From Candidatus Yonathbacteria bacterium RIFCSPHIGHO2_02_FULL_44_14 (GTDB lineage Bacteria > Patescibacteriota > Minisyncoccia > Phycocordibacterales > UBA1550), in assembly GCA_001823535.1 (NCBI GenBank), contig MHUT01000009.1:1-45109 (forward strand): a stretch of 45,109 nt of DNA, given 5' to 3'. This document shows, piece after piece, positions 3,140 through 40,362 of the stretch. Both the position numbers and the translations under genes were made by a program. Below the pieces are notes generated by a model. That model had not been told where the DNA came from, did no database searches, and worked only from the letters and a program-made list of their open reading frames with translations. Positions within the stretch are counted from its first letter, which is position 1; each line of letters begins with the position of its first letter.

Positions 3140-3628
3140 TTATTCCTGTTCGTCGTCGGATAAATGTGCGAGTAGCTTTAATTTATTTTCAAAGTACCAA
3201 ATCGCAGTAAATACAAAAAGCGCAAAGATAGTAGTAAAGACTGCCAAAGCATAAAATCCGTACCCAATAGCAATACCAATGCCTGCGGCGACCCATATCC
3301 CAGCCGCGGTGGTGACCCCGCTTACTTTCGCGTCTTTAAAAAAAATGAGGCCGGCACCAATAAAACCAATTCCTTGAATAATCGCAGCGGTAATACGCGC
3401 CGAGGAATCAGTGAACACGCCCAGAACGCTGCCATACCCACCTGATGCGAGAATACCAATGATTACGAAAAGCGCTGATCCCATAGTGACGAGTCCGTAT
3501 GTTCGCATCCCAGCAGGCTTTCCCGCGATTGCACGCTCGATACCAAGGGACATGCCTAGAATAAGCGCAGTAAATAATTTAAGAATTATTTCCAAGTCCT
3601 GGTTAGTTAAAAGTGTTGTGATATCCAT
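3140..3628 (-). CDS. MgtC/SapB family membrane protein
   Basis: LGIER..KPAGMRTYGLV, RITAAIIQGIGFIGAG, GVTTAAGIWVAAGIG. Confidence 0.92.
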   Translation of the reverse strand: MDITTLLTNQDLEIILKLFTALILGMSLGIERAIAGKPAGMRTYGLVTMGSALFVIIGILASGGYGSVLGVFTDSSARITAAIIQGIGFIGAGLIFFKDAKVSGVTTAAGIWVAAGIGIAIGYGFYALAVFTTIFALFVFTAIWYFENKLKLLAHLSDDEQE

Positions 3629-3662
3629 AATTTACATTGTATCAAATGCTTTTTATTTTTAA

Positions 3663-3847
3663 CAGGACTCGTATGTTTGGATGCAATACGAGCACGTAAG
3701 TCAATTTACTAATTGAGCGACAAGGAGCAAAAATGCGAGCTGTACGTCGCGCTTCAATCGACACTGCGCGACTCGATTTTGCAAAATCGACAGTGAACGT
3801 TTTTGCAACGAAGTCAACGAGGTAGTGCGCCAAACACACGGGTCCTG
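3663..3847. repeat. Structured intergenic element, family A copy 1
   Basis: 3677-3721 (45 nt) is identical to 18613-18657. The element is closed by a terminal stem caggactcgtatgtttgg/ccaaacacacgggtcctg. Confidence 0.85.
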
Positions 3848-4702
3848 CTAAAACTCCTGACAAACCATATCTACCTCCTTCACGACATTTTTTATTTGCT
3901 CATCCGAAAAACCAATTGATTTTAGCGGAGTGGGGCTATTCTTGAGGTCACGACACATCACTATACCTTGCTGGAGAAGGTTATTTTTGTCACTCTGGCT
4001 CAAGGTTGAAAGAAAAGTGAGTGGATGCACCCCCGTCTCCAATATAAGATCTTGCAGGTTCCCTTGCTCGGGGTAATCCCAACCAATAATATTGAGCCCC
4101 GAGCAATTTGCGTACTGGATGGCATCAAGTGTAAGTTTTGTGTTTGTAATGAGCCAACCTTCGTGAATTTTTGGCACGCCAACTTCCTTGAGGTCATGTC
4201 CTTTCTCTAGATCAAGAAAACGTGCGTGTACATAAAGAGCGACCTTAACATCTGTCTTAATTCCCTGCTGATTGTGAAATTTACACTCTGCAAAAATATG
4301 ACGATCGCCTTTTTCCATGAGGATGTCAACTTCGTGCGCAACACAGAAACCGGGCAGGATCGCACCCGTCTGTGCGGTAAATCCTTTTCCGCGCAAAACT
4401 TCTGCTACAAATTTCTCAAAAGGAAACCCACTGGGACCAAGTTCCATTACAGCCTTCCTAAGCGAGTAGCGCACCGCAGCAGGGTACTTTTTTTTCTTGA
4501 GGATAGAGTACGCGTGTTTGTAAATCTGGGAGGTTTTCATTCCGTCATGAAGCTCGGGAATAATATGTTCTACAATCTTGTCAGTGGTCTCCTTATCCGC
4601 ACCGGAGCGTGTCAACGAACGGCGAAGCTTCTCCATAGAAAAGCGTTCACGTTCACCGGTAGATTTTATAACCCATGCAACTTCGTCGTGACCTTTTGCC
4701 AT
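3848..4702 (-). CDS. ATP-cone domain plus PD-(D/E)xK (Mrr-like) nuclease domain protein
   Basis: N-terminal VIKSTGERERFSMEKLRRSL (ATP-cone-like); HEVDIL..AECKFH nuclease motif. Confidence 0.8.
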   Translation of the reverse strand: MAKGHDEVAWVIKSTGERERFSMEKLRRSLTRSGADKETTDKIVEHIIPELHDGMKTSQIYKHAYSILKKKKYPAAVRYSLRKAVMELGPSGFPFEKFVAEVLRGKGFTAQTGAILPGFCVAHEVDILMEKGDRHIFAECKFHNQQGIKTDVKVALYVHARFLDLEKGHDLKEVGVPKIHEGWLITNTKLTLDAIQYANCSGLNIIGWDYPEQGNLQDLILETGVHPLTFLSTLSQSDKNNLLQQGIVMCRDLKNSPTPLKSIGFSDEQIKNVVKEVDMVCQEF

Positions 4703-6923: not shown

Positions 6924-8159
6924 TTAGATTGGCAAATTTACCGGAGCCTCTGATTTTCGTGAAGGAATACGACCAAATGTTGGCGTTTGAGCTACCCCTC
7001 CCGGGAAATGGTATATGGTTGCGAGCTCCTCCGTTGTAAGCACAAACGGCTTCAATTTGCGCGGGGAATGGAACCATGAACGTTGCTTGTACGCCTCAAA
7101 CATTTCCTTACGCTTCTTTGTCCATCGAATGTCATTGAAGTCCTGCCATGGGTAATCTTTGCCAAATGTATTCGCGGTCAATGTGAACCCGTTTAAACTG
7201 CTACTTGTAAACGGGCGCAGGAGTCCGCCAAGCGCTTTAATATTGCTTGGGTGAAACTGCTCTTTTTTTACAAGATACACAGCGCGAATACCGCAATCAA
7301 AACCAAACTTACCCATGCTTCGCTCGATAGCTTTGATTATGTCGCGGTCTCCTTCGGTCATCATCATCATTTTAAAAGATGGTGCACCCTCCGGGGTCTT
7401 TTCGTTGCGCTTGGTAAGTTTATCGATAATAGCCTTTCCTTCGTCTTGCCAATTACCCATAGTGCCATCTGATTTATGATAACGCTTGCTTGCTGCTTGC
7501 ACAATGATCTGCATCCATATCTGCTCGCCCTTGCCGATCGAACCCAAATACTCAATGATGGAAGTCAGTGGATCAATTTTAAATTCTTCCTTCGGATCTT
7601 TATCGAGACCGTAGTCAACATAGGTCTTGATTGGATAAGGATCTGGCTTGCTCAAACCATACTCCGCACCAATGAGTGACCAGTCACCCTCCTTGCCGCG
7701 GTAGTCCACATAGCGAACATAATCTGGAACTTCATAAATTTCAACATCAGGATACTGGCTGTATAGTTGTGCTTCGATGACATTTTTATAAATCCATGGA
7801 GTGCGAATGAAAAATTTGATATGCCCCTCAATGGAAACCATTTCAAGCGAGGACCAATCTTTTACTTTTCCTCTCCATATTTTATCGAACCAAGTGCCAG
7901 TGGCTGCTTGATAAAGAGCATTGAGCACAATCTCCATTGCAAGCGGTGATTTATAAGTTTCTTTAGGAAGTTTTATCTCGAGGAGTATCCAGTTGATTTT
8001 GGCCATATGTCGCCCTTGTACATAGTGCATCCACTGATGCCAAAACATATAGCCGAGGAGTATTGGTCCCCAATAAGGAAACCACGAAAAAACCACAGTA
8101 AGGGTTGATACGGTCTGCTGATAGAGCCCCAAGAAATCCAGGGTCTGAAATAAACTCAT
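6924..8159 (-). CDS. Conserved hypothetical membrane-anchored protein
   Basis: 411-aa ORF with an N-terminal TM segment, EIKLPKE..PLAMEIVL and C-terminal EELATIYHFP. Resembles (from recall) CPR proteins related to N-terminal regions of VirD4/TraG-like ATPases. Confidence 0.6.
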   Translation of the reverse strand: MSLFQTLDFLGLYQQTVSTLTVVFSWFPYWGPILLGYMFWHQWMHYVQGRHMAKINWILLEIKLPKETYKSPLAMEIVLNALYQAATGTWFDKIWRGKVKDWSSLEMVSIEGHIKFFIRTPWIYKNVIEAQLYSQYPDVEIYEVPDYVRYVDYRGKEGDWSLIGAEYGLSKPDPYPIKTYVDYGLDKDPKEEFKIDPLTSIIEYLGSIGKGEQIWMQIIVQAASKRYHKSDGTMGNWQDEGKAIIDKLTKRNEKTPEGAPSFKMMMMTEGDRDIIKAIERSMGKFGFDCGIRAVYLVKKEQFHPSNIKALGGLLRPFTSSSLNGFTLTANTFGKDYPWQDFNDIRWTKKRKEMFEAYKQRSWFHSPRKLKPFVLTTEELATIYHFPGGVAQTPTFGRIPSRKSEAPVNLPI

Positions 8160-8177
8160 ACTTCATATCATACAGCA

Positions 8178-8237
8178 AAAAACATGAACGCAAAAGGGCG
8201 GGACTATTTAGTCCCGCCCTTTTGCGTTCATGTTTTT
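8178..8237. terminator. Long perfect hairpin/intrinsic terminator (28-bp stem)
   Basis: aaaaacatgaacgcaaaagggcgggact-attt-agtcccgcccttttgcgttcatgttttt, overlapping the stop of the upstream gene. Confidence 0.8.
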
Positions 8238-9391: not shown

Positions 9392-12181
9392 TTATTCTTT
9401 TATCACGATATTTATCAGCTTGTTTGGAACCACGATAATCTTCGAAAAAACCATCCCTTCCATCCATTTTTGCACTCCAGGGCGGGCTAGCGCCATCTCT
9501 TTTACCACATCTTCCTCTGTATCTCGAGATACAATAATCGTGTCGCGCAACTTTCCATTCACCTGCACAGCGACCGTCACTTCACCTTCAACACATTTGG
9601 CTGGGTCGGCTATTGGCCACGGTTCAAGGTGAATAGAATTTTTGTTACCAAGATCGCGCCACAGCTCTTCGGTAATATGTGGCGCAAATGGTGCGAGGAG
9701 CACGAGAAGGACTTCGAAATCATTCTTGGAAACAGTTTCTATTTTTTCCAATTCATTCAAAAGAATCATCAGCGATGAAATAGCAGTATTAAAATTAAAT
9801 TCTTCAATATCCTCACCTACTTTTTTGATGGTCTTGTGAAGTGCCACTTCTGCCCTCAACCCATCTTCTGTTTTTGAAACCTTTTCTTTTAGCCGCCACA
9901 CACGCTCAAGAAACCTGCGTGGACCAACGATGCTTTTTGTGCTCCATGCGACCGATTGTCCAAATGGACCCATGAACATTTCATACAAACGCATGGTGTC
10001 TGCGCCATACATAGAAACAATATCATCCGGGTTCACCACATTCCCCCAACGTTTGCTCATTTTGCGTCCATCTTCTGCAATAATAAGTCCGACATTTTGA
10101 AGTCGATTAAATGGTTCGTCGTAGTTTACAACACCTATGTCGTATAAAAATTTATGATAAAAACGCGCATAGATAAGATGGCGTGTTGAATGCTCGGCAC
10201 CCCCAACGTACATGTCCACCGGTGACCAATACTTTTCTTTTTCTTTATCAACAAGCATATTTGTATTGTGCGGATCAATAAACCGCAAATAGTACCACGA
10301 AGACCCTGCCCACTGTGGCATCGTGTTCGTCTCACGCTTGCCTACGTCACCACAATTTGGACACGGAACATTCACCCAGTCAGGAATACCCGCGAGTGGC
10401 GACTCTCCTGTTCCTGTTGGCTCGTAGGATTCCACCTCTGGCAAAACCACAGGCAAATCTTCTTCAGGGACAGGAACAACACCACACTTCTCACAGTGAA
10501 TAAGTGGAATCGGCTCACCCCAATAACGCTGGCGAGAGAACACCCAATCCTTAAGGCGATACTTGGTGACCCATCGTCCTTTTACGAAGTCAGTGATTTT
10601 CTTTTTTGCGTCTTCGTTTGGCGTGCCGTCAAACTGACCAGAATTTATTAGTCTGCCGTCATCAAGATACACTGATTGTTTTTTTACATCAGTCAGTTCA
10701 ATTAAGGCCTCTTTAACGAAATCAGTAACTTTTTCATGATTTAAGGCATCTTCAACTTTCATCTCAACAATACTCTCACCCTCCATAAGAGTTAGGGTGC
10801 TGGTATCAACACCTCCTACATGAAATAAAATATTACGTGTTCCGTCATCTTTATAACCAAAAGCTCCTATGTATTGTGCATCATCGTCTTTAATTTTAAG
10901 CAACAATTCTTCAAAAAGTTCTCTCTTCAGACAAGTCAGTTCATCTTCCCCATCTTCTGGACGTCCGCCAAAGGAGGAAATCATCCCTGGTCTCGAAGGA
11001 GCATTAGCATCTCTTTTTTGAAAAATAAATGTACCAGTGTTTGTTTCTAAAATTGCACCCACCCCCCGTATTTTTTTTATATCGTGAGCAACCACCCTTT
11101 TAATTGACAGCTCGAACTTCTTCGCAAATTCAAAATCCCTCTCATCGTGCGCAGGAACAGCCATTACTGCGCCAGTGCCATAGTGTCCAAGCACATAGTC
11201 CGCGACAAAAAGAGGAAGGTTCTCGTTATTTGCGGGGTTTATAACACTCACCCCTTCAATCTTCACTCCAGTTTTATCGCGACCTTCTGCAGTGCGCTCA
11301 ATTTCAGTGCGCGCTTTTGTTTCGGTGCGATACTTTTCAACTTCGCCCCAATTTGCAATCGACTCCTTCAACTCATCAATGAGTTTATGCTCCGGCGCAA
11401 GCACACAATATGTCGCACCAAAAAGCGTATCGAGGCGCGTCGTGAATACCGTGATTTTTTTCTCGCTTCCCTCGATAGCAAAATCAATTTCAGCGCCCTC
11501 GCTTCGACCAATCCAGTTTTTCTGTGCTTCTTTGATAGATACAGGCCAATCGAGTTTATCAATATCAGCAAGCATGCGATCCGCATAGTCGGTGATACGA
11601 AGTACCCACTGACGCATTGGTTTTTTCTCAATTGGGGTATCACAGCGTTCGCATTTACCATCTTCAAGATCTTCGTTCGCAAGGCCTGTCTGGCAAGTTG
11701 GGCACCAGTTAATCGGCTCATATGATTCGTACGCGAGCCCCTTTTTAAACATCTTCAAAAAAATCCATTGTGTCCATTTATAAAAAGTAGGATCCGTGGT
11801 GTTTATCTCGCGACTCCAGTCATAATCAAACCCAATCATCGAAAGTTGTTCCTTGTACCGTTTGGTATTTTTTTCTACAGCGACTCGGGGGTGTACTTTG
11901 TTTTTTATTGCATACTGTTCTGCGGGCAGACCGAAAGCATCCCATCCCATTGGATGAAGCACGTTGAATCCCTGCATGCGTTTCATACGAGAATAAATAT
12001 CAGTTGCGATATATCCCTTTGGATGCCCAACATGGAGCCCGTCCCCTGATGGATACGGGAACATATCGAGTACATATTTTTTTGGCTTCACAGAATTCTC
12101 GCCTGCGCTATAGACACCAGACGCGCTCCACACATCTTGCCATTTTTTTTCGATTACTTTGTGGTCGTACTTTTCAGACAT
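9392..12181 (-). CDS. leuS: Leucine-tRNA ligase with inserted NUDIX domain
   Basis: MFPYPSGDGLHVGH (HIGH), KMSKR (KMSKS), CP1 editing motifs (TTRLDT, GTGAVMAVPAHDERD). ATG at 12181. Confidence 0.97.
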   Translation of the reverse strand: MSEKYDHKVIEKKWQDVWSASGVYSAGENSVKPKKYVLDMFPYPSGDGLHVGHPKGYIATDIYSRMKRMQGFNVLHPMGWDAFGLPAEQYAIKNKVHPRVAVEKNTKRYKEQLSMIGFDYDWSREINTTDPTFYKWTQWIFLKMFKKGLAYESYEPINWCPTCQTGLANEDLEDGKCERCDTPIEKKPMRQWVLRITDYADRMLADIDKLDWPVSIKEAQKNWIGRSEGAEIDFAIEGSEKKITVFTTRLDTLFGATYCVLAPEHKLIDELKESIANWGEVEKYRTETKARTEIERTAEGRDKTGVKIEGVSVINPANNENLPLFVADYVLGHYGTGAVMAVPAHDERDFEFAKKFELSIKRVVAHDIKKIRGVGAILETNTGTFIFQKRDANAPSRPGMISSFGGRPEDGEDELTCLKRELFEELLLKIKDDDAQYIGAFGYKDDGTRNILFHVGGVDTSTLTLMEGESIVEMKVEDALNHEKVTDFVKEALIELTDVKKQSVYLDDGRLINSGQFDGTPNEDAKKKITDFVKGRWVTKYRLKDWVFSRQRYWGEPIPLIHCEKCGVVPVPEEDLPVVLPEVESYEPTGTGESPLAGIPDWVNVPCPNCGDVGKRETNTMPQWAGSSWYYLRFIDPHNTNMLVDKEKEKYWSPVDMYVGGAEHSTRHLIYARFYHKFLYDIGVVNYDEPFNRLQNVGLIIAEDGRKMSKRWGNVVNPDDIVSMYGADTMRLYEMFMGPFGQSVAWSTKSIVGPRRFLERVWRLKEKVSKTEDGLRAEVALHKTIKKVGEDIEEFNFNTAISSLMILLNELEKIETVSKNDFEVLLVLLAPFAPHITEELWRDLGNKNSIHLEPWPIADPAKCVEGEVTVAVQVNGKLRDTIIVSRDTEEDVVKEMALARPGVQKWMEGMVFSKIIVVPNKLINIVIKE

Positions 12182-12191
12182 TAAACATAGT

Positions 12192-12235
12192 ATAACAAAA
12201 CCCTCGTCTTTGCTCAAAGACGAGGGTTTTGTTAT
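12192..12235. terminator. Intrinsic terminator hairpin
   Basis: ataacaaaaccctcgtcttt..aaagacgagggttttgttat, downstream of the 12241-13227 gene. Confidence 0.75.
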
Positions 12236-16456: not shown

Positions 16457-16500
16457 AAAAACAAAAAGACCATTTTATATAAAATGGTCTTTTTGTTTTT
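16457..16500. terminator. Bidirectional intrinsic terminator
   Basis: aaaaacaaaagaccatttt-atat-aaaatggtctttttgttttt between convergent genes. Confidence 0.8.
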
Positions 16501-16768
16501 AAATCCTTTTACCCGCAAGCGCATATACTACAGACCTGTGCACAATAAGCACCACAAACACTTCTTTTTTCTTTAACTGAAACACCACACGATAATCCCC
16601 AACCCTTAGACTCCGGAGCCCTGATAGCGAAAACTGGAGTGGCTTGCCAAAAAATTCTGGCTCGGTAGTTAGTTTTTCTTGAATTGCTTTTTTAATTGCT
16701 ATTTTATGAGAAGTCGAAATACCAGAAATATCATCAACTACTTTTTTATGATAGGTGATTTCAAACAT
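16499..16768 (-). CDS. Type II toxin, RelE/StbE family
   Basis: 89 aa, GKPL..LSGLRSLRVGDYRVVF, VHRSVVY. Confidence 0.9.
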   Translation of the reverse strand: MFEITYHKKVVDDISGISTSHKIAIKKAIQEKLTTEPEFFGKPLQFSLSGLRSLRVGDYRVVFQLKKKEVFVVLIVHRSVVYALAGKRI

Positions 16769-16771
16769 ATA

Positions 16772-16996
16772 TTACTTTCCCCACACATCAGCATGAGTCA
16801 GCTTCTTCCCTTTTTCTTTCAACCTATTCTCGCCCAATAAACTAAAGGCTTTATCCTCTTCCATCATAAGTGAGATATTGAGTAGCTCGCTTATCTTTGT
16901 CGCCTCAGGCACGCGGTCACGCTTCGCAATCTGCGTTATGAGTTTCTCCACATCAGGAGCGAGAGTAATATTCAACCTTCGTTTTGTGGTAGCCAT
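16772..16996 (-). CDS. Antitoxin, ribbon-helix-helix-like
   Basis: 74 aa, KRRLNITL N-terminal strand, C-terminal LTHADVWG, 3 nt upstream of the RelE-type toxin. Confidence 0.8.
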   Translation of the reverse strand: MATTKRRLNITLAPDVEKLITQIAKRDRVPEATKISELLNISLMMEEDKAFSLLGENRLKEKGKKLTHADVWGK

Positions 16997-17103: not shown

Positions 17104-17292
17104 ATGAGTAATAAAACAGGTGGTTACAATACTAGGCGATACTACAATTACCAGTTTATATGCCCAACAATGGACGTCAGTGGGGAGATAAAATATTTCC
17201 CTGATCCAATCGAGACTGTCACCTGTCCAATGTGCCACAAGCCAAAAGGTCTGGGGCATGGACTGTGTGATTACAAAATTATTGAATTATGA
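17104..17292 (+). CDS. Small Cys-rich hypothetical protein (62 aa)
   Basis: GGAGG SD, own promoter and terminator, four Cys including CPMC. Confidence 0.65.
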   Translation: MSNKTGGYNTRRYYNYQFICPTMDVSGEIKYFPDPIETVTCPMCHKPKGLGHGLCDYKIIEL

Positions 17293-17294
17293 AG

Positions 17295-17330
17295 AAGCGT
17301 GAACATTTGCAAATGTTCACGCTTTTCCTT
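17295..17330 (+). terminator. Intrinsic terminator (30-nt perfect palindrome)
   Basis: aagcgtgaacatttgcaaatgttcacgctt followed by ttcctt. Confidence 0.75.
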
Positions 17331-17355
17331 AAACCCTAAACTTTATTCCGTGTCT

Positions 17356-17460
17356 AAATTATGCCAGATACGAGGCGTGACGAGGTTTTGTGAGGAGGTG
17401 TACGAATAGTACTCTGACGAGCAAAACCGAAGTCATAACGACGTAGATGATATGATTTTA
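17356..17460. repeat. Structured intergenic element, diverged family A member
   Basis: Shares atacgag..gac(g/a)agg and gaagtc..acga.gtag with the 3663 and 18599 elements; tgac..ggttttg/caaaacc..gtca stems. Confidence 0.6.
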
Positions 17461-18555
17461 AACGCGGAATTCGATGACGTCACCGTCCTTGACAACATAT
17501 TCCTTCCCTTCTATTCTCAAAAGCCCCTTCTCTTTCGCGTTTGCAAACGAACCCGCATCGAGCAAATCTTTCCAAAAAATAACTTCTGCGCGAATGAATT
17601 TGTCTTTGAAATCCGTATGAATTGCCATTCCAGCAACCGGTGCGGTGCTTCCCTTTTTGATAGTCCATGCGCGCGTCTCTTTTTCACCCGTTGTAAAATA
17701 AGTCTCGAGACCGAGCATCTCGTAGCCTTTTGTGATTAGGTCGTTGATGCCATCGTTTTTGGAACCGAGCTCTGCACGAAACATTTCTTTTTCCTCTCCT
17801 TCAAATGCGGCAAGCTCCTGCTCTACCCCTGCATCCACCACCACGTAGTGTACGCCGAGTGACTTCAAATATTCCAGAAGCGCAGTGTAGCGCGGGTCAT
17901 TTATTTCATCGAGATTTTTACCACCCGCTTTTTTATTCAAAACATACAAAACCGGCTTCAGTGTAAGGAGGTGCATTGCGCGGACAACAAGAACTTCATC
18001 ATCCTTGAGAATTACGGTGCGTGCGAGCTTCCCCTGTGACAAAGCCTCAGAAACCTTTTGGAGGATTTCTTTTTCTTTTACAGCTTCCTTATCGCCACGC
18101 TTCACGTCTTTTTCGATATTCGCAAGGCGCTTTGTCACGGTCTGCTCATCAGCAAGAATGAGCTCAAGATTAATCGTCTCAATATCTGAAACAGGATCTA
18201 CTTTGCCATGCACGTGAATCACATTATCATCTTCAAAGATACGAACCACCTCTGCAATAGCATCGGTCTCACGGATGTGCGAAAGAAATTGATTGCCAAG
18301 TCCTTCACCTTCAGATGCGCCTTTTACAAGCCCCGCTATATCCACAAACTCCACTGCTGCGGGAATAGTTTTTTGAGTTTTAGAAAACTCTGCGAGCTTA
18401 TGGAGGCGTTCATCGGGTACCGCAACCACACCCACTGATGGATCTATTGTACAAAACGGGTAATTCTCTGCGGGAACAGATTTTTTCGTAAGTGCGTTAA
18501 AAAGTGTGGACTTGCCCACATTGGGTAGCCCTACGATTCCGATTGCGAGTGCCAT
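17458..18555 (-). CDS. ychF: Redox-regulated ATPase YchF
   Basis: GIVGLPNVGKSTLFN, NYPFCTIDP, DIAGLV..GEGLGNQFL, C-terminal TGS domain. Confidence 0.97.
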   Translation of the reverse strand: MALAIGIVGLPNVGKSTLFNALTKKSVPAENYPFCTIDPSVGVVAVPDERLHKLAEFSKTQKTIPAAVEFVDIAGLVKGASEGEGLGNQFLSHIRETDAIAEVVRIFEDDNVIHVHGKVDPVSDIETINLELILADEQTVTKRLANIEKDVKRGDKEAVKEKEILQKVSEALSQGKLARTVILKDDEVLVVRAMHLLTLKPVLYVLNKKAGGKNLDEINDPRYTALLEYLKSLGVHYVVVDAGVEQELAAFEGEEKEMFRAELGSKNDGINDLITKGYEMLGLETYFTTGEKETRAWTIKKGSTAPVAGMAIHTDFKDKFIRAEVIFWKDLLDAGSFANAKEKGLLRIEGKEYVVKDGDVIEFRV

Positions 18556-18598
18556 AAGGTTGTGTTAATGGTTAAATAATAAAATACAAAAATAGTTT

Positions 18599-18746
18599 TA
18601 GAACTTTTGTGGTTGGATGCAATACGAGCACGTAAGTCAATTTACTAATTGAGCGACGAGGAACAAAAATATGAACCGTTCTTAGCGTACTGTGAGTGTT
18701 TTTGCGACAAGGTCAACGAAGCAGTGTGCCAACTATATAAGTTCTA
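18599..18746. repeat. Structured intergenic element, family A copy 2
   Basis: 45 nt identical to 3677-3721; terminal stem tagaacttttgtggttgg/ccaactatataagttcta. Confidence 0.85.
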
Positions 18747-18968
18747 TTTCAAAACTTTCTGAAGTTCTGACTGATGCGCGCGCATGACCTCCATGGAAGC
18801 CGCTTGCTCCGAACGACCGCTTTTCACTTTTGCCTTAATCTCGTCGCCTATCTTTTTGAAAAGCTCTGGATTCTTTTCTACAAGGGTAATAATGCGGTCA
18901 ATCTCGGCTTCTGGAACGCCTTTCAGCTGGCGCTTAATGACTTGTTTGAGTAAAAATTCTTTTAACAT
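18744..18968 (-). CDS. Small helical hypothetical protein
   Basis: MLKEFLL..VEKNPELFKKI, 74 aa. TAGACT lies 7 nt before the ATG at 18968. Confidence 0.7.
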   Translation of the reverse strand: MLKEFLLKQVIKRQLKGVPEAEIDRIITLVEKNPELFKKIGDEIKAKVKSGRSEQAASMEVMRAHQSELQKVLK

Positions 18969-22186: not shown

Positions 22187-22215
22187 AATAACCACAAAAA
22201 GTGGCAAAAATGGGG

Positions 22216-22243
22216 TTGACTTTTTCTGAGGTACTGGTATAAT
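22216..22243 (+). promoter_or_regulatory. Sigma70 promoter with extended -10 (cassette 1)
   Basis: TTGACT-16-TATAAT, with TGG immediately before the -10. Confidence 0.75.
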
Positions 22244-22255
22244 ACAACGAGAATC

Positions 22256-22343
22256 GAGGTGCTCTTTGAGAGCCTTGTATATTTTATTAACCTTTCTCCT
22301 TGTAGGGATCTTCCCTTCAAGGAGACCACGACAAGAGAATTTT
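22256..22343 (+). repeat. 88-nt structured leader, copy 1
   Basis: Base-for-base identical to 23111-23198. Confidence 0.95.
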
Positions 22344-22355
22344 AGGAGGATTATA

Positions 22356-22952
22356 GTGAATACTCCACTAATAGATCTTGGAGTGAGTTGCGGTGGACTC
22401 GGCGGTTTTTTCGCTAAAGAGAAAAGACTAACCGGGCCAAACTACAGGCATGGTGAGTTGCTCTTGATTCCACTCCCGCCAGAAGGTACATGGCAGGACG
22501 AAGATCCACGCTTAGTCACTGCCCTGGTGTATTCTCCGGTATCCGCGGAAGAAGTGATGGGGAAGAATTTTTTCGGACGTACCGCGTACGAGAAAGAACT
22601 TAGACTTAACAAGAGCCTCCCAGAAAAACACTATCTTAAATTGGGCTTACCGGGTGTTGTTCCATTTTTCTTGGACACACTCAATTCTCCATGTCCGTTC
22701 GTCAAAGGAAGATTGATCCGCCACACGCATGTGCTTATGATATTGGAAAAACGCGCATGGAAAGGAAAAGTCCCCTGCAAAAGTGATAGGTGGAAACTAG
22801 GGTGGGTTCTCTGTCTCAAAGGACCTTCATATTCTGTAGAGGCAGCAAGATCCCTGGACCTGCCGCCAGAATACAAGAAAATGTATATGTTAGGAAAAGA
22901 AGAAACCCTGAGTGTCGTAATAGAAAGAAAGTACGACGTAAGGGAGAGATGA
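22356..22952 (+). CDS. Hypothetical protein, paralog 1
   Basis: GTG start 6 nt after AGGAGG. Aligns with 23212-23790 (MGxNFxG, DTLxSPCPF, TH, LPxEYK). Confidence 0.75.
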   Translation: MNTPLIDLGVSCGGLGGFFAKEKRLTGPNYRHGELLLIPLPPEGTWQDEDPRLVTALVYSPVSAEEVMGKNFFGRTAYEKELRLNKSLPEKHYLKLGLPGVVPFFLDTLNSPCPFVKGRLIRHTHVLMILEKRAWKGKVPCKSDRWKLGWVLCLKGPSYSVEAARSLDLPPEYKKMYMLGKEETLSVVIERKYDVRER

Positions 22953-23005: not shown

Positions 23006-23071
23006 TAAAATCACTACAGAAATTCAAATCTTCTTCTTAATACATTTTGATACATAGTACCATGCGGGGGA

Positions 23072-23099
23072 TTGACATTTTCTCTTGTACTGGTATAAT
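23072..23099 (+). promoter_or_regulatory. Sigma70 promoter with extended -10 (cassette 2)
   Basis: TTGACA-16-TATAAT. Shares gtactggtataat with cassette 1. Confidence 0.8.
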
Positions 23100-23110
23100 T
23101 AAACTTGGAT

Positions 23111-23198
23111 GAGGTGCTCTTTGAGAGCCTTGTATATTTTATTAACCTTTCTCCTTGTAGGGATCTTCCCTTCAAGGAGACCACGACAAGAGAATTTT
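23111..23198 (+). repeat. 88-nt structured leader, copy 2
   Basis: Identical to 22256-22343, offset by 855 nt. Confidence 0.95.
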
Positions 23199-23211: not shown

Positions 23212-23790
23212 ATGTGTATTCCACAAAAATGCCTTGTTTGGGATAATAGTTGTGGTGGTATCAATGATGAAGAAAATTCGGCTAGGCGATTAGAGTATTG
23301 TGTCACGCCAAGGATCTCAGAAACCGTAGGATGTAATGAGTACGGTGAGTTTGAAGTAACAATCTATAATCAAAGAATATCCGCGCGGAAAATTATGGGC
23401 AGTAATTTTTCCGGACTTTATGAGTTTGAAAAAGAAGCGGGGCTTCCAATGCTGTCAGAAAAAGAGTATGTACGGCGTGGCCTTACGTGCCGTGTTCCAT
23501 GGACAGCAGATACGTTACTGTCTCCGTGTCCATTCCACGAAGGGCTGCGCATTTGCCAAACTCATTTTCTTGGTCTGGTAGAAGTTCGTAAATGGGAAGG
23601 AATACTTCATTCCTCAGAAAGCCCTTATGAGCTACAATGGATTCTCCAGCTAATAAGGACTCCGCTTACCGAGGAAGAAGTTTTGTCGTTAGTCCTACCA
23701 GTAGAATATAAACCTCAACGGATGCTCGACGAGGAACAAAACAAAGTCGTGTTCCTCATCAAAAGGAAACCGGACAGAGAGGAATACTGA
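23212..23790 (+). CDS. Hypothetical protein, paralog 2
   Basis: AAGGAG SD. Clear but distant similarity to 22356-22952. Confidence 0.75.
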   Translation: MCIPQKCLVWDNSCGGINDEENSARRLEYCVTPRISETVGCNEYGEFEVTIYNQRISARKIMGSNFSGLYEFEKEAGLPMLSEKEYVRRGLTCRVPWTADTLLSPCPFHEGLRICQTHFLGLVEVRKWEGILHSSESPYELQWILQLIRTPLTEEEVLSLVLPVEYKPQRMLDEEQNKVVFLIKRKPDREEY

Positions 23791-24234: not shown

Positions 24235-26591
<2,357 letters not shown>

Positions 26592-38125: not shown

Positions 38126-38390
38126 TTCGAGTCCTCGTGGGCCTCGCAATGACAACAATGCCAGATGACTTTCAGTATCTGGCATTGTCATTGCGGGCCC
38201 ACGAGTCCGCGGTCCCGAGTTACTAAGTATTTTACCACGTTTCACTTGTAAAATCCTAAGTACTCGCGACCCCAGCTCGACTGTCGCCTTGCGACATGGC
38301 TCCGCTTTTCGAGTCCTCGACGCAAGCCAAGCAGTTGGCTTGCTTGGGCCCGCAAATGAAAAGCACCGCTTAAGCGGTGCTTTTCATTTG
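38126..38390. repeat. tRNA-Trp 3'-end mirror array
   Basis: Inverted copy 38126-38149, direct copy 38191-38205, interrupted inverted copy 38308-38355, and two long hairpins. Confidence 0.9.
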
Positions 38391-38461
38391 CGGGCCCACG
38401 AGGACTCGAACCTCGGTCTGCGCGTTTGGAGTGCGATATTCTACCACTGAACTATAGGCCC
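38391..38461 (-). tRNA. tRNA-Trp(CCA)
   Basis: GGGCCTA/TGGGCCC acceptor, G73, loop CT-CCA-AA, CGAGG-TTCGAGT-CCTCG. The anticodon stem is imperfect. Confidence 0.9.
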
Positions 38462-39905: not shown

Positions 39906-40219
39906 TTGTGCGCCGGCGAATTAGCAAATTCGAGTCTTGGACTACAGGATTCGAATCCTTACAAAAGCCAACTGCTTGGCTTTTTCCCGACGCTACAAAA
40001 ATCGAAGCCCCATACTCTTTCGAGTATGGGGCTTGATTTCTTGTGCGCCGGGAAAGTCGGCCCCGAGTTACTAAATCGCTTCGCTCCTAAGTACTCGCAG
40101 CCCCGGCTCACTGTCGCCTTGTGACATGTTCCGCCTTTCGAATCCTTACGCAAGCAAAGCAGTTTGCTTGCTCCCGGCGCACAATTAAAAAACTCCTCAT
40201 TTGAGGAGTTTTTTAATTG
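39906..40219. repeat. tRNA-Tyr 3'-end mirror array
   Basis: Direct copies 39906-39916 and 40041-40054; interrupted inverted copies 39950-39998 and 40137-40184; two long hairpins. Confidence 0.9.
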
Positions 40220-40302
40220 TGCGCCGGGAAGGATTCGAACCTTCGAAGCCCGGAGGCGAGAGATTTACAGTCTCTTGTGATTGACCACTCCACCACCGAC
40301 GC
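40220..40302 (-). tRNA. tRNA-Tyr(GTA)
   Basis: GCGTCGG/CCGGCGC acceptor, A73, AGAGA-CTGTAAA-TCTCT, long variable arm. CCA is not encoded. Confidence 0.96.
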
Positions 40303-40306
40303 ATAT

Positions 40307-40362
40307 GTGAGCGAGCGTTTCGTTCCCCAGTCAGCAGACAGGGGAACGAAACGCTCGCTCAC
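40307..40362. repeat. Perfect 22-bp inverted repeat
   Basis: gtgagcgagcgtttcgttcccc / ggggaacgaaacgctcgctcac. Confidence 0.85.

What the first reader, a model, noticed from the sequence alone, without database searches (positions are those of the whole stretch)
3663..3847. Dispersed multi-stem element repeated 15 kb away, with covarying terminal stem
Copies at 3663-3847 and 18599-18746 share 45 identical nt (ttggatgcaatacgagcacgtaagtcaatttactaattgagcgac) and a similar right end. Each is closed by an approximately 18-bp stem of different sequence. The apical region differs: copy 1 carries two extra hairpins, including the palindrome tcgattttgcaaaatcga. Both copies touch the stop codon of a minus-strand gene. 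G-U pairs favour folding of the plus strand, i.e. antisense RNA or ssDNA. It could be a REP/MITE-like element or an unnamed ncRNA.
Basis: partly seen in the sequence, partly recalled or inferred. Interest (0 to 1): 0.75.

Follow-up and report, generated by a model that had tools for sequence, protein, structure and literature searches.

The report
Rod-shaped gene-end element family in Parcubacteria
The two repeats are real and are elaborated members of an unnamed family of strongly folded, strand-specific elements of about 130 bases that sit against stop codons in a group of tiny groundwater bacteria; what they do is unknown.

Summary
A 45-nt block is identical at 3677-3721 and 18613-18657. 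Each copy is closed by an 18-20 bp stem of different sequence with 4-5 compensatory pairs. Each abuts the stop codon of a minus-strand gene, and the plus strand folds better.

Neither copy matches Rfam, plasmids or phages, and the window holds no transposase.

Close relatives (Yonathbacteria-like Parcubacteria) have empty sites at both loci. One relative, L119, carries a simpler ortholog of copy 2. L119 is hit both by a model built from the two copies and by a model of a wider rod-shaped family, so it links them.

That family includes a third window member at 17342-17473. It shares the motifs CAGAURCRAGGCG and AACRAAGYAGAUG around a tandem G-A loop. On seven sequences 90% of cells pair (64% shuffled) and 35 of 44 pairs show double changes.

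Copies 1 and 2 equal the rod plus a 24-nt insertion that makes two extra hairpins. The 45-nt identity is probably gene conversion.

Eight of nine members fold better on the strand antisense to the abutting gene. I think a structured antisense RNA is most likely. A sense-strand terminator or a DNA-level mobile hairpin is not excluded. No expression data exist.

The parts
3663..3847 (+). Copy 1: branched member of the family. It has a closing stem, two inserted hairpins, an inner stem and a two-hairpin apical module.
   Evidence: R1, 174.8 bits. It lies between the ATP-cone gene stop (3848-3850) and the MgtC promoter and start.
3663..3680 (+). Copy 1 closing stem P1, 5' arm (CAGGACTCGTATGTTTGG)
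   Evidence: L108 and L116 keep a homologous stretch at the same site without its partner.
3830..3847 (+). Copy 1 closing stem P1, 3' arm (CCAAACACACGGGTCCTG). It ends one base before the reverse-complement stop codon CTA.
3677..3721 (+). The 45-nt block identical to 18613-18657. It comprises the family 5' motif (GGATGCAATACGAG), a 24-nt insertion, and GCGAC.
3693..3716 (+). 24-nt insertion CACGTAAGTCAATTTACTAATTGA (placement good to about 1 nt), absent from L119, L057 and win3. It creates hairpins P2 (3687-3698) and P3 (3701-3716).
3745..3790 (+). Apical two-hairpin region of copy 1 (the insertion relative to copy 2 is 3753-3789). Hairpin 1 is GTCGCGC...GCGCGAC; hairpin 2 is the palindrome TCGATTTTGCAAAATCGA at 3773-3790. 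A 44-nt part of it (3745-3788) is itself a repeat found in other contigs of the same metagenomes.
3815..3827 (+). Copy 1 family 3' motif CAACGAGGTAGTG
   Evidence: It matches the family pattern AA-C-RAA-GYA-G.
18599..18746 (+). Copy 2: the same branched form without the apical module. It lies between the 74-aa gene stop (18744-18746, inside the stem) and a 43-nt AT-rich spacer before the YchF start.
   Evidence: R1, 185.6 bits. The ortholog without the 24-nt insertion is in L119. The site is empty in L097, L100 and L103.
18613..18657 (+). Second copy of the 45-nt identical block. The 24-nt insertion is at about 18629-18652.
18714..18726 (+). Copy 2 family 3' motif CAACGAAGCAGTG. The 11-mer CAACGAAGCAG is identical in L057.
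17342..17473 (+). Third window member ('win3'), a canonical unbranched rod. Its 5' motif CAGATACGAGGCG is at 17365-17377 and its 3' motif AACGACGTAGATG at 17437-17449. Its 3' arm covers the YchF stop (17458-17460) and the last codons.
   Evidence: R2, 108.4 bits; R3, 111.2 bits. Orthologs are in L097 and L100.
3636..3644 (-). TGATACAAT, an extended -10-like promoter of MgtC on the minus strand, about 8 nt before the ATG. It is not part of the element but bounds it, and it predates it.
   Evidence: The motif is conserved in L108, L111, L115 and L116 at the same place. Its function is inferred.
18556..18598 (.). 43-nt AT-rich spacer between copy 2 and the YchF start. It is absent from the empty sites and unrelated to the tail of copy 1.

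Best explanation
Shown: the two copies are derived paralogs of an unannotated family of rod-shaped structured elements of about 125-135 nt, found in Yonathbacteria-like Parcubacteria.

A canonical member has a long closing stem of variable sequence. Next comes a symmetric tandem G-A loop (CAGAUG opposite CAGAUG). Then comes a 3-bp URC/GYA helix and a conserved purine-rich asymmetric loop (5' RA-G-GC against 3' AA-C-RAA). Two further stems follow.

The base of the rod sits on the stop codon of a gene on the opposite strand.

Copies 1 and 2 are such a rod plus a 24-nt insertion in the 5' strand of the conserved loop. The insertion adds two hairpins and turns the rod into a four-way junction. Copy 1 also gained an apical two-hairpin module.

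Inferred: the exact 45-nt identity is a recent gene-conversion tract between the two copies, because L119, the ortholog at copy 2's site, lacks the insertion that copy 2 shares with copy 1.

Inferred, with lower confidence: the working form is an RNA read from the purine-rich strand, antisense to the abutting gene. Its conserved G-A-rich loops would serve as a protein-binding platform. Its closing stem is complementary to the stop-codon region of the neighbouring mRNA. That could allow cis-antisense control, or blocking of transcription that would otherwise run into the gene's end.

Members are gained, lost, rearranged and elaborated quickly between close relatives.
For: Repeat and structure of the two copies.

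Link to the family:
- R1, built from the two copies, hits L057 at 22.6 bits.
- R1 hits L119 at 109 bits, E 2.7e-28.
- R2, built from rods only, hits the same L119 element at 50.5 bits, E 4e-10.
- R3, built without L057, finds L057 at 53 bits, E 2e-10.
- The alignment shows the 24-nt insertion inside the contiguous motif ATACGAG|GCG.

Covariation on 7 sequences:
- 90.4% of cells pair, against 63.5% in shuffles and 34-46% with partners slid.
- 35 of 44 pairs show double changes, and 0 of 500 shuffles reach any measure.
- The closing stem of the YchF-3' orthologs pairs with the last YchF codons and follows synonymous codon differences (CGC GTT against AGA GTC).

Strand:
- 8 of 9 members fold better on the element strand, by 85 kcal/mol in total.
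- There are 16 G-U pairs against 7 A-C mismatches.
- Members are G>C although the window's + strand has negative GC skew overall.
- At the three sites between co-directional genes (ATP-cone/MgtC, 74-aa/YchF, L057), the element is antisense to both neighbours.
- L057 has TGATACAAT about 25 nt upstream on the element's own strand.

Turnover: empty or differently filled sites in close relatives at four loci.

Not a known family.
Against: There is no expression evidence at all; no RNA run holds the locus.

No promoter sits at a constant distance upstream on the element strand, and no terminator follows it. The strand runs straight into the neighbouring gene in antisense.

On the sense strand, roughly 5 or 6 of 9 members by my reading are followed by a U-rich tract. 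The genome's ordinary gene-end hairpins occupy the same niche. Both points fit a sense-strand terminator.

The strand test is weak. Members are few, and several are orthologs of one another. The pair counts were made on alignments fitted to the element strand.

R2 and R3 do not hit copies 1 and 2 directly. That link rests on L119, L057 and the shared motifs.

Gene conversion is inferred from one ortholog only.
Confidence: 0.45

Rival explanations
1. Sense-strand element. The rod is part of the 3' UTR or intercistronic RNA of the gene whose stop codon it covers. It acts as an elaborate intrinsic terminator or as a 3' stabiliser against exonucleases, much as REP sequences do in E. coli mRNAs.
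For: Every member starts at or within a stop codon of that gene.

Roughly 5 or 6 of 9, by my reading, are followed on the sense strand by a U-rich tract.

Copy 1 is followed by MgtC's own promoter-like TGATACAAT.

The window is full of long perfect gene-end palindromes, some overlapping tRNA 3' ends. These look like ordinary terminators in the same niche.

The sense strand is guaranteed to be transcribed.
Against: The sense strand folds worse in 8 of 9 members, by up to 19 kcal/mol.

The conserved loops are pyrimidine-rich and unremarkable on that strand.

G-U pairs on the element strand become A-C mismatches on the sense strand, 16 against 7.

At the 74-aa/YchF junction, relatives have abutting genes only 1 nt apart. 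A terminator inserted there would cut an operon.
Confidence: 0.27
2. DNA-level selfish element: a small non-autonomous mobile hairpin (MITE, REP or ERIC-like, or moved as folded single-stranded DNA) that targets gene ends or terminator hairpins. Its structure would be kept because an enzyme encoded elsewhere recognises it.
For: Presence and absence vary among close relatives at four sites.

Modules are nested: the 24-nt insertion, and a 44-nt apical stretch (3745-3788) that is itself repeated in other contigs.

Outer parts of some closing stems look like pre-existing gene-end hairpins.

Strand specificity is also typical of ssDNA transposons and of attC sites.
Against: Termini are not conserved between members.

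There is no real target-site duplication; the flanking TA is the stop codon and its partner.

No transposase, integrase or HUH gene is in the 45-kb window.

Copy number is low, and copies within one genome are diverged except for the 45-mer.

Orthologous copies are retained with compensatory change across species.

If GC skew marks the replication strands, the folding strand is the leading-strand template, not the exposed lagging-strand template. This last point is an inference.
Confidence: 0.2
3. Cis-regulatory leader, such as a riboswitch, controlling the downstream genes MgtC and YchF on the minus strand.
For: Both copies lie 35-45 nt upstream of a start codon. Both are highly structured.
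Against: The minus strand is the poorer folder for copy 2 (z -0.2).

MgtC's promoter-like motif lies downstream of the element, so the element would not be in its transcript.

Other family members lie after YchF, between convergent UDG and atpC, or before a DUF5671 gene. No common downstream gene exists.

Relatives run the same genes without the element.
Confidence: 0.03
4. Neutral palindromes with no function. The apparent compensatory changes would come from template switching or arm-to-arm conversion within inverted repeats.
For: The genome carries many long perfect palindromes. Gene conversion evidently acts on these elements.
Against: Arm-to-arm conversion would erase asymmetric loops. 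Yet the non-palindromic motifs CAGAURCRAGGCG and AACRAAGYAGAUG are kept across species and sites. The strand asymmetry in G-U pairs is also unexplained.
Confidence: 0.05

Closest known systems
REP/BIME elements of enterobacteria and pseudomonads (with RAYT transposases)
   Same: Both are intergenic and concentrated at gene 3' ends and between convergent genes. Both are hairpin-forming and strand-asymmetric, vary in presence between relatives, and can affect upstream mRNA.
   Different: REPs are about 35 nt, occur in hundreds of near-identical copies, carry a conserved 5' GTAG-type tetranucleotide, and go with a RAYT gene. Here the elements are about 130 nt rods, few per genome, with diverged stems. 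No GTAG-type head was apparent by eye (not systematically tested) and no RAYT is in view.
ERIC (IRU) and Correia-type miniature elements (MITE-like)
   Same: Both are imperfect palindromes of 100-200 bp in transcribed intergenic DNA. Both have size variants produced by internal insertions, and both show patchy presence.
   Different: Those families share conserved terminal inverted repeats and, for Correia, TA duplications and a consensus sequence. Here only internal loop motifs are conserved, while termini and stems differ freely.
Integron attC sites
   Same: Both are imperfect palindromes of variable sequence and length placed at or on the stop codon of the preceding gene. In both, the folding strand is the one antisense to that gene, and conserved unpaired bases give strand specificity.
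   Different: There are no R''/R' boxes (RYYYAAC...GTTRRRY) at the outer ends and no integrase. The flanking genes are core housekeeping genes in conserved synteny, not cassettes. Only the hairpin comes and goes, not the gene.
Intrinsic (including bidirectional) terminators
   Same: They share the position right after stop codons, a stable stem, and a U-rich tract on the sense strand in many members.
   Different: Here the length is about 130 nt, there are conserved purine-rich internal loops, and the preferred folding strand is opposite to the terminated gene.
Rod-like protein-binding small RNAs (6S RNA, bacterial Y RNAs)
   Same: All have a long stem closed by the 5' and 3' ends, conserved internal loops within variable helices, and sometimes several paralogs.
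   Different: There is no large central bubble (6S). No Ro-binding helix or tRNA-like module was apparent by eye (Y RNA; not systematically tested). Rfam models give no match.

Membership tests
Any Rfam 15 family | Covariance-model score at or above the family's gathering threshold | tested here: not met
   The only window hits at gathering score are 4 tRNAs. With E up to 10 there is nothing on 3400-4100, and only spurious microRNA-hairpin hits on win3 and the L100 rod.
MITE (miniature inverted-repeat transposable element) | Terminal inverted repeats whose sequence is shared by family members | tested here: not met
   Termini of nine members differ: CAGGAC, TAGAAC, ATTCCG, AACTGC, TAGAAA, AGTTTG and so on. 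Only the internal loops are conserved.
MITE (miniature inverted-repeat transposable element) | Target-site duplication flanking the element | tested here: not met
   The TA on both sides is explained by the stop codon and its pairing partner. The filled against empty comparison shows no other duplication. L057 alone has CATTA on both sides.
MITE (miniature inverted-repeat transposable element) | Empty sites in related genomes | tested here: met
   The 74-aa/YchF junction is empty in L097, L100 and L103. The ATP-cone/MgtC spacer is empty in L106 and L115. The atpC/UDG spacer is empty in L103.
REP/RAYT | Many near-identical short palindromes plus a RAYT (HUH, Y1) gene | tested here: not met
   Only two copies of the core appear in four metagenome runs. 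No transposase-like Pfam hit is found among the window proteins scanned. The rest of the genome was not available.
Integron attC | Outer R''/R' boxes RYYYAAC...GTTRRRY and an intI integrase nearby | tested here: not met
   No such boxes were seen by eye at the ends of copy 1 or copy 2. No integrase is in the window.
Intrinsic terminator | G+C-rich hairpin followed directly by a U run on the transcribed strand | tested here: inconclusive
   The scan tool finds none at either copy. On the sense strand, roughly 5 or 6 of 9 members by my reading are followed by U-rich sequence; on the element strand none is.
Riboswitch / cis-regulatory leader | Lies in the 5' UTR, on the sense strand, of functionally related genes | tested here: not met
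   It folds on the antisense strand. Neighbouring genes are unrelated across members.
Structured RNA (generic) | Compensatory base changes that keep the helices | tested here: met
   35 of 44 pairs show double changes. 90.4% of cells pair, against 63.5% shuffled and 34-46% slid.
Structured RNA (generic) | Evidence that the strand is transcribed | not testable with these tools
   No RNA runs are listed for the locus. Loci from relatives could not be submitted.

The most novel reading that the evidence does not exclude
These rods are a new class of strand-specific nucleic-acid element peculiar to ultra-small CPR bacteria. They would be an antisense rod RNA (or folded single strand) with a conserved tandem G-A and purine-loop platform for an unknown protein. 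They would colonise stop-codon positions, grow by adding hairpins, and exchange sequence by gene conversion. In effect this would be a mobile, modular gene-end regulator with no counterpart among named RNA families or repeat classes.
Probability: 0.3. Interest if true: 0.75.

Novelty: new variant of a known kind. Interest (0 to 1): 0.55.

Why it matters
Candidate-phyla-radiation bacteria have genomes of about 1 Mb with almost no spare DNA, and very few of their non-coding elements have been described.

A 130-nt element kept with compensatory changes, down to tracking synonymous codons of the neighbouring gene, is unlikely to be junk.

If it is an RNA, it adds a new protein-binding or antisense regulatory motif in organisms that cannot be cultured alone.

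If it is a DNA-level mobile hairpin, it shows how spacers grow and shrink in streamlined genomes.

Either way the covariance models built here give a handle for scanning all Paceibacteria genomes.

Tried and rejected
1. A third copy at 24757: only 12 nt, inside a coding region.

2. Exact-word scans of public collections.
- The 22-mer found nothing in the GTDB representative genomes.
- The 20-mer found only the same copy 1 in the metagenome contigs.
- The viral scans gave nothing or one unrelated palindrome.

3. BLAST of copy 1 against plasmids and phages: no match.

4. The spurious 73-aa ORF over copy 1, used as a protein probe for mis-called copies elsewhere: it found only itself.

5. nhmmer and blastn of the two copies against 1.5 Mb of related loci: nothing. 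Only covariance models and motif regexes found relatives.

6. Whole-spacer duplication: the tails between the element and the start codon are unrelated.

7. TA target-site duplication: rejected as a by-product of pairing with the stop codon.

8. K-turn, sarcin-ricin and SRP domain IV readings of the conserved loops: considered by eye only. None fits in register, and the Rfam SRP models are silent.

9. Retron, T-box, 6S and attC readings: no RT gene, no motifs, no Rfam hits.

10. Stop-codon readthrough: the frames after the TAG stay open for 32-50 codons, by my own hand translation. That is not beyond chance, and I did not pursue it.

11. RNA-seq: none available.

12. L117 1-106: a long hairpin scoring 26 bits without the motifs. 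I treated it as generic.

Full report
**Observation**

The 45-mer is present exactly twice, at 3677-3721 and 18613-18657 on the + strand. None is expected by chance. A 12-nt partial match at 24757 is inside coding sequence.

The two copies align over their whole length apart from a 37-nt apical insertion in copy 1. Each is closed by an 18-20 bp stem: 3663-3680 with 3830-3847, and 18599-18616 with 18729-18746. The stems are homologous but diverged, and RNAalifold counts 5 pairs changed on both sides and kept.

Copy 1 folds at -73.4 kcal/mol (z -6.1). Copy 2 folds at -41.3 (z -2.4) on + but only -27.3 (z -0.2) on the minus strand.

The 3' arm of each stem ends at or on the stop codon of a minus-strand gene. 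These genes are an ATP-cone/AF1548-like protein (3848-4702) and a 74-aa protein (18744-18968). The genes downstream on the minus strand are MgtC and YchF.

**Context**

The window comes from a Parcubacteria (Paceibacterota) genome close to 'Candidatus Yonathbacteria', judged by the names attached to homologs. It consists of housekeeping genes: AlaRS, LeuRS, ATP synthase, ClpB and tRNAs.

Pfam finds no transposase, integrase or reverse transcriptase among the 28 window ORFs I scanned. Some ORFs, mainly at about 24-32 kb, were not scanned in the window itself.

Rfam gives only tRNAs and nothing at the element even at E up to 10. There is no similarity to plasmids or phages.

Near-identical contigs from many groundwater and sediment metagenomes carry both copies unchanged. 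In four runs only two contigs carry the core, and assemblies break at it. The core is therefore a two-copy repeat, not a high-copy one.

**Empty sites**

In relatives whose YchF is 89-92% identical (L097, L100, L103, L104), the small gene's stop and the YchF ATG are 1 nt apart (AAAGTAATATGG). The window has about 190 extra bases there, made of the 148-nt element plus 43 unrelated AT-rich bases.

At the other site, the closest relatives by ATP-cone identity (L106 at 92%, L115 at 88%) have spacers of 21-30 nt. These contain only MgtC's TGATACAAT-like promoter motif.

L108 and L116 have something else there. They keep a stretch homologous to copy 1's 5' arm plus ATGCAA, followed by a different long hairpin.

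**A wider family**

A covariance model of the two copies (R1) gave one weak hit in 1.56 Mb of related loci: L057:7711-7842, 22.6 bits.

L057 shares GAUGCAA after the 5' arm. It also shares the exact 11-mer CAACGAAGCAG just before the 3' arm.

Searching for that 11-mer with one mismatch found more:
- elements right after the YchF stop in L097-L102;
- a third element in the window itself at 17342-17473;
- the L116 hairpin.

Five of these align with two conserved blocks, CAGAURCRAGGCG and AACRAAGYAGAUG, set in otherwise free sequence. RNAalifold gives one rod with 27 of 44 pairs showing double changes.

Model R2, built from them, found a further member wedged exactly between the convergent stop codons of UDG and atpC in L100 (55.9 bits).

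Model R3, built without L057, recovers L057 at 53 bits, E 2e-10.

The decisive bridge is L119. This relative (YchF 89% identical) has a 133-nt element at the same 74-aa/YchF junction as copy 2. R1 hits it at 109 bits (E 2.7e-28) and R2 at 50.5 bits (E 4e-10).

**Anatomy**

On seven sequences, 90.4% of cells pair, against 63.5% in shuffles and 34-46% with partners slid. 35 of 44 pairs carry changes on both sides, and no shuffle reaches any measure (six sequences).

The invariant parts are:
- a symmetric loop in which 5'-GA-3' faces 5'-GA-3' (CAGAUG opposite CAGAUG);
- a 3-bp helix that covaries (UGC/GCA with UAC/GUA);
- an asymmetric purine loop (RA-G-GC against AA-C-RAA).

In the YchF-3' orthologs the outer stem pairs with the last YchF codons. 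The non-coding arm follows synonymous codon differences: TTC CGC GTT in the window against TTT AGA GTC in L100. That is hard to explain without selection on pairing.

**What the finding's copies are**

Aligned with L119, L057 and win3, copies 1 and 2 show a 24-nt insertion, CACGTAAGTCAATTTACTAATTGA. It sits inside the otherwise contiguous motif ATACGAG|GCG.

The insertion creates hairpins P2 (UACG-AGCA-CGUA) and P3 (UCAAUU-UACU-AAUUGA), so the rod becomes a four-way junction. The 3' strand of both copies still reads AA-C-GAR-GYA-G, as in the family.

The 45-nt identical block is the insertion plus 16 and 5 flanking bases.

L119, at copy 2's site, lacks the insertion, while copy 1 at another site shares it exactly. 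The rest of the two copies is only about 75% identical. I therefore infer a recent gene-conversion tract. Strong selection on the block is the alternative.

Copy 1 also carries an apical two-hairpin module. A 44-nt stretch of it (3745-3788) recurs with 4-7 mismatches in at least three other contigs per metagenome run. There it sits just before what looks like a gene start. I could not retrieve those contigs.

**Strand**

Eight of nine members fold better on the strand bearing the purine loops, by 85 kcal/mol in total and up to 19 each.

On the model-fitted alignment there are 16 G-U pairs against 7 A-C mismatches.

Members are G>C although the window's + strand is C-rich overall.

That strand is antisense to the gene whose stop codon the rod covers. 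At the three sites between co-directional genes it is antisense to both neighbours.

The case for an independent RNA gene is still weak:
- Only L057 has a good promoter-like motif (TGATACAAT) upstream on that strand.
- The other members have weak or no candidates and no terminator.
- On the sense strand many rods are followed by U-rich sequence.
- The genome's ordinary gene-end hairpins are long perfect palindromes, some overlapping tRNA 3' ends, and occupy the same niche.
- No RNA data exist.

**Verdict**

The finding is real and not ordinary, but it is not a dispersed high-copy repeat either. It is two elaborated, partly homogenised paralogs of a small, fast-turning-over family of structured gene-end rods. 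Rfam 15 does not contain the family, and three literature searches did not turn it up (these were not exhaustive).

Structure and family membership are well supported. The molecule that acts (antisense RNA, sense RNA or single-stranded DNA) and its function are not settled. I rank antisense RNA first, sense-strand terminator or stabiliser second, and mobile DNA hairpin third.

Noticed in passing
window 3745-3788: This 44-nt stretch of the apical two-hairpin module of copy 1 occurs, with 4-7 mismatches, in at least three other contigs per metagenome run, at similar depth. In those contigs it is followed by ACATATGAAAAAAGTTATTGC, which looks like a gene start. It appears to be a separate small repeat nested in copy 1.
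   Followed up: partly
window 8178-8237, 12192-12235, 16457-16500, 38345-38398, 40172-40229, 40307-40362: Long perfect palindromes with 21-29 bp arms and 0-4 nt loops lie in spacers. Two of them (38345-38398 and 40172-40229) use the 3' acceptor end of a tRNA gene as one arm. Gene-end hairpins that reach into the gene seem to be a habit of this genome.
   Followed up: no
window 22212-22343 and 23068-23198: An 88-nt stretch is 100% identical 855 nt apart. It is preceded by an 81% identical promoter-like stretch (TTGAC...TGGTATAAT). Both lie at the starts of two ORFs with no Pfam match (22266-22952, 23212-23790).
   Followed up: no
window 9392-12217 (minus strand): The leucyl-tRNA synthetase carries a NUDIX domain inserted after the editing domain (941 aa). 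The L097 relative has it too (963 aa), while L100, L103 and L119 have enzymes of about 800 aa without it.
   Followed up: no
window 3636-3644 (minus strand); L057 about 7862-7870: TGATACAAT, an extended -10-like motif, lies only about 8 nt before the MgtC ATG. It is conserved at that place in L108, L111, L115 and L116, which suggests leaderless mRNAs. The same motif faces the rod in L057.
   Followed up: partly
window 17104-17292 (+) and 17287-17332: A conserved small CxxC...CPMC zinc-ribbon-like ORF (62 aa) converges on YchF. A similar ORF is visible by eye in L103 (its translation was not computed). It is followed by a hairpin (17287-17332) and then the win3 rod.
   Followed up: no
stop codons at 3848-3850 and 18744-18746; L100 6593-6718; L116 3850-3852: Where a rod abuts a gene, the stop codon is TAG at the ATP-cone/MgtC, 74-aa/YchF and UDG/atpC sites. 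The empty orthologous sites mostly have TAA. The YchF-3' rods sit on TAA. The sample is too small to judge.
   Followed up: partly
L116 3880-3945; L097 5899-5978: L116's rod has a 19-bp perfect inner stem that L108 lacks, a difference of about 74 nt. L097's atpC/UDG spacer has a perfect hairpin starting with AGATGCA and a run of about four tandem TTTAG units.
   Followed up: no
window 16499-16996 (minus strand): A ParE-type toxin gene (89 aa) lies next to a 74-aa ORF with no Pfam match that may be its antitoxin partner. The pair is absent at this place from L097, L100 and L103.
   Followed up: no
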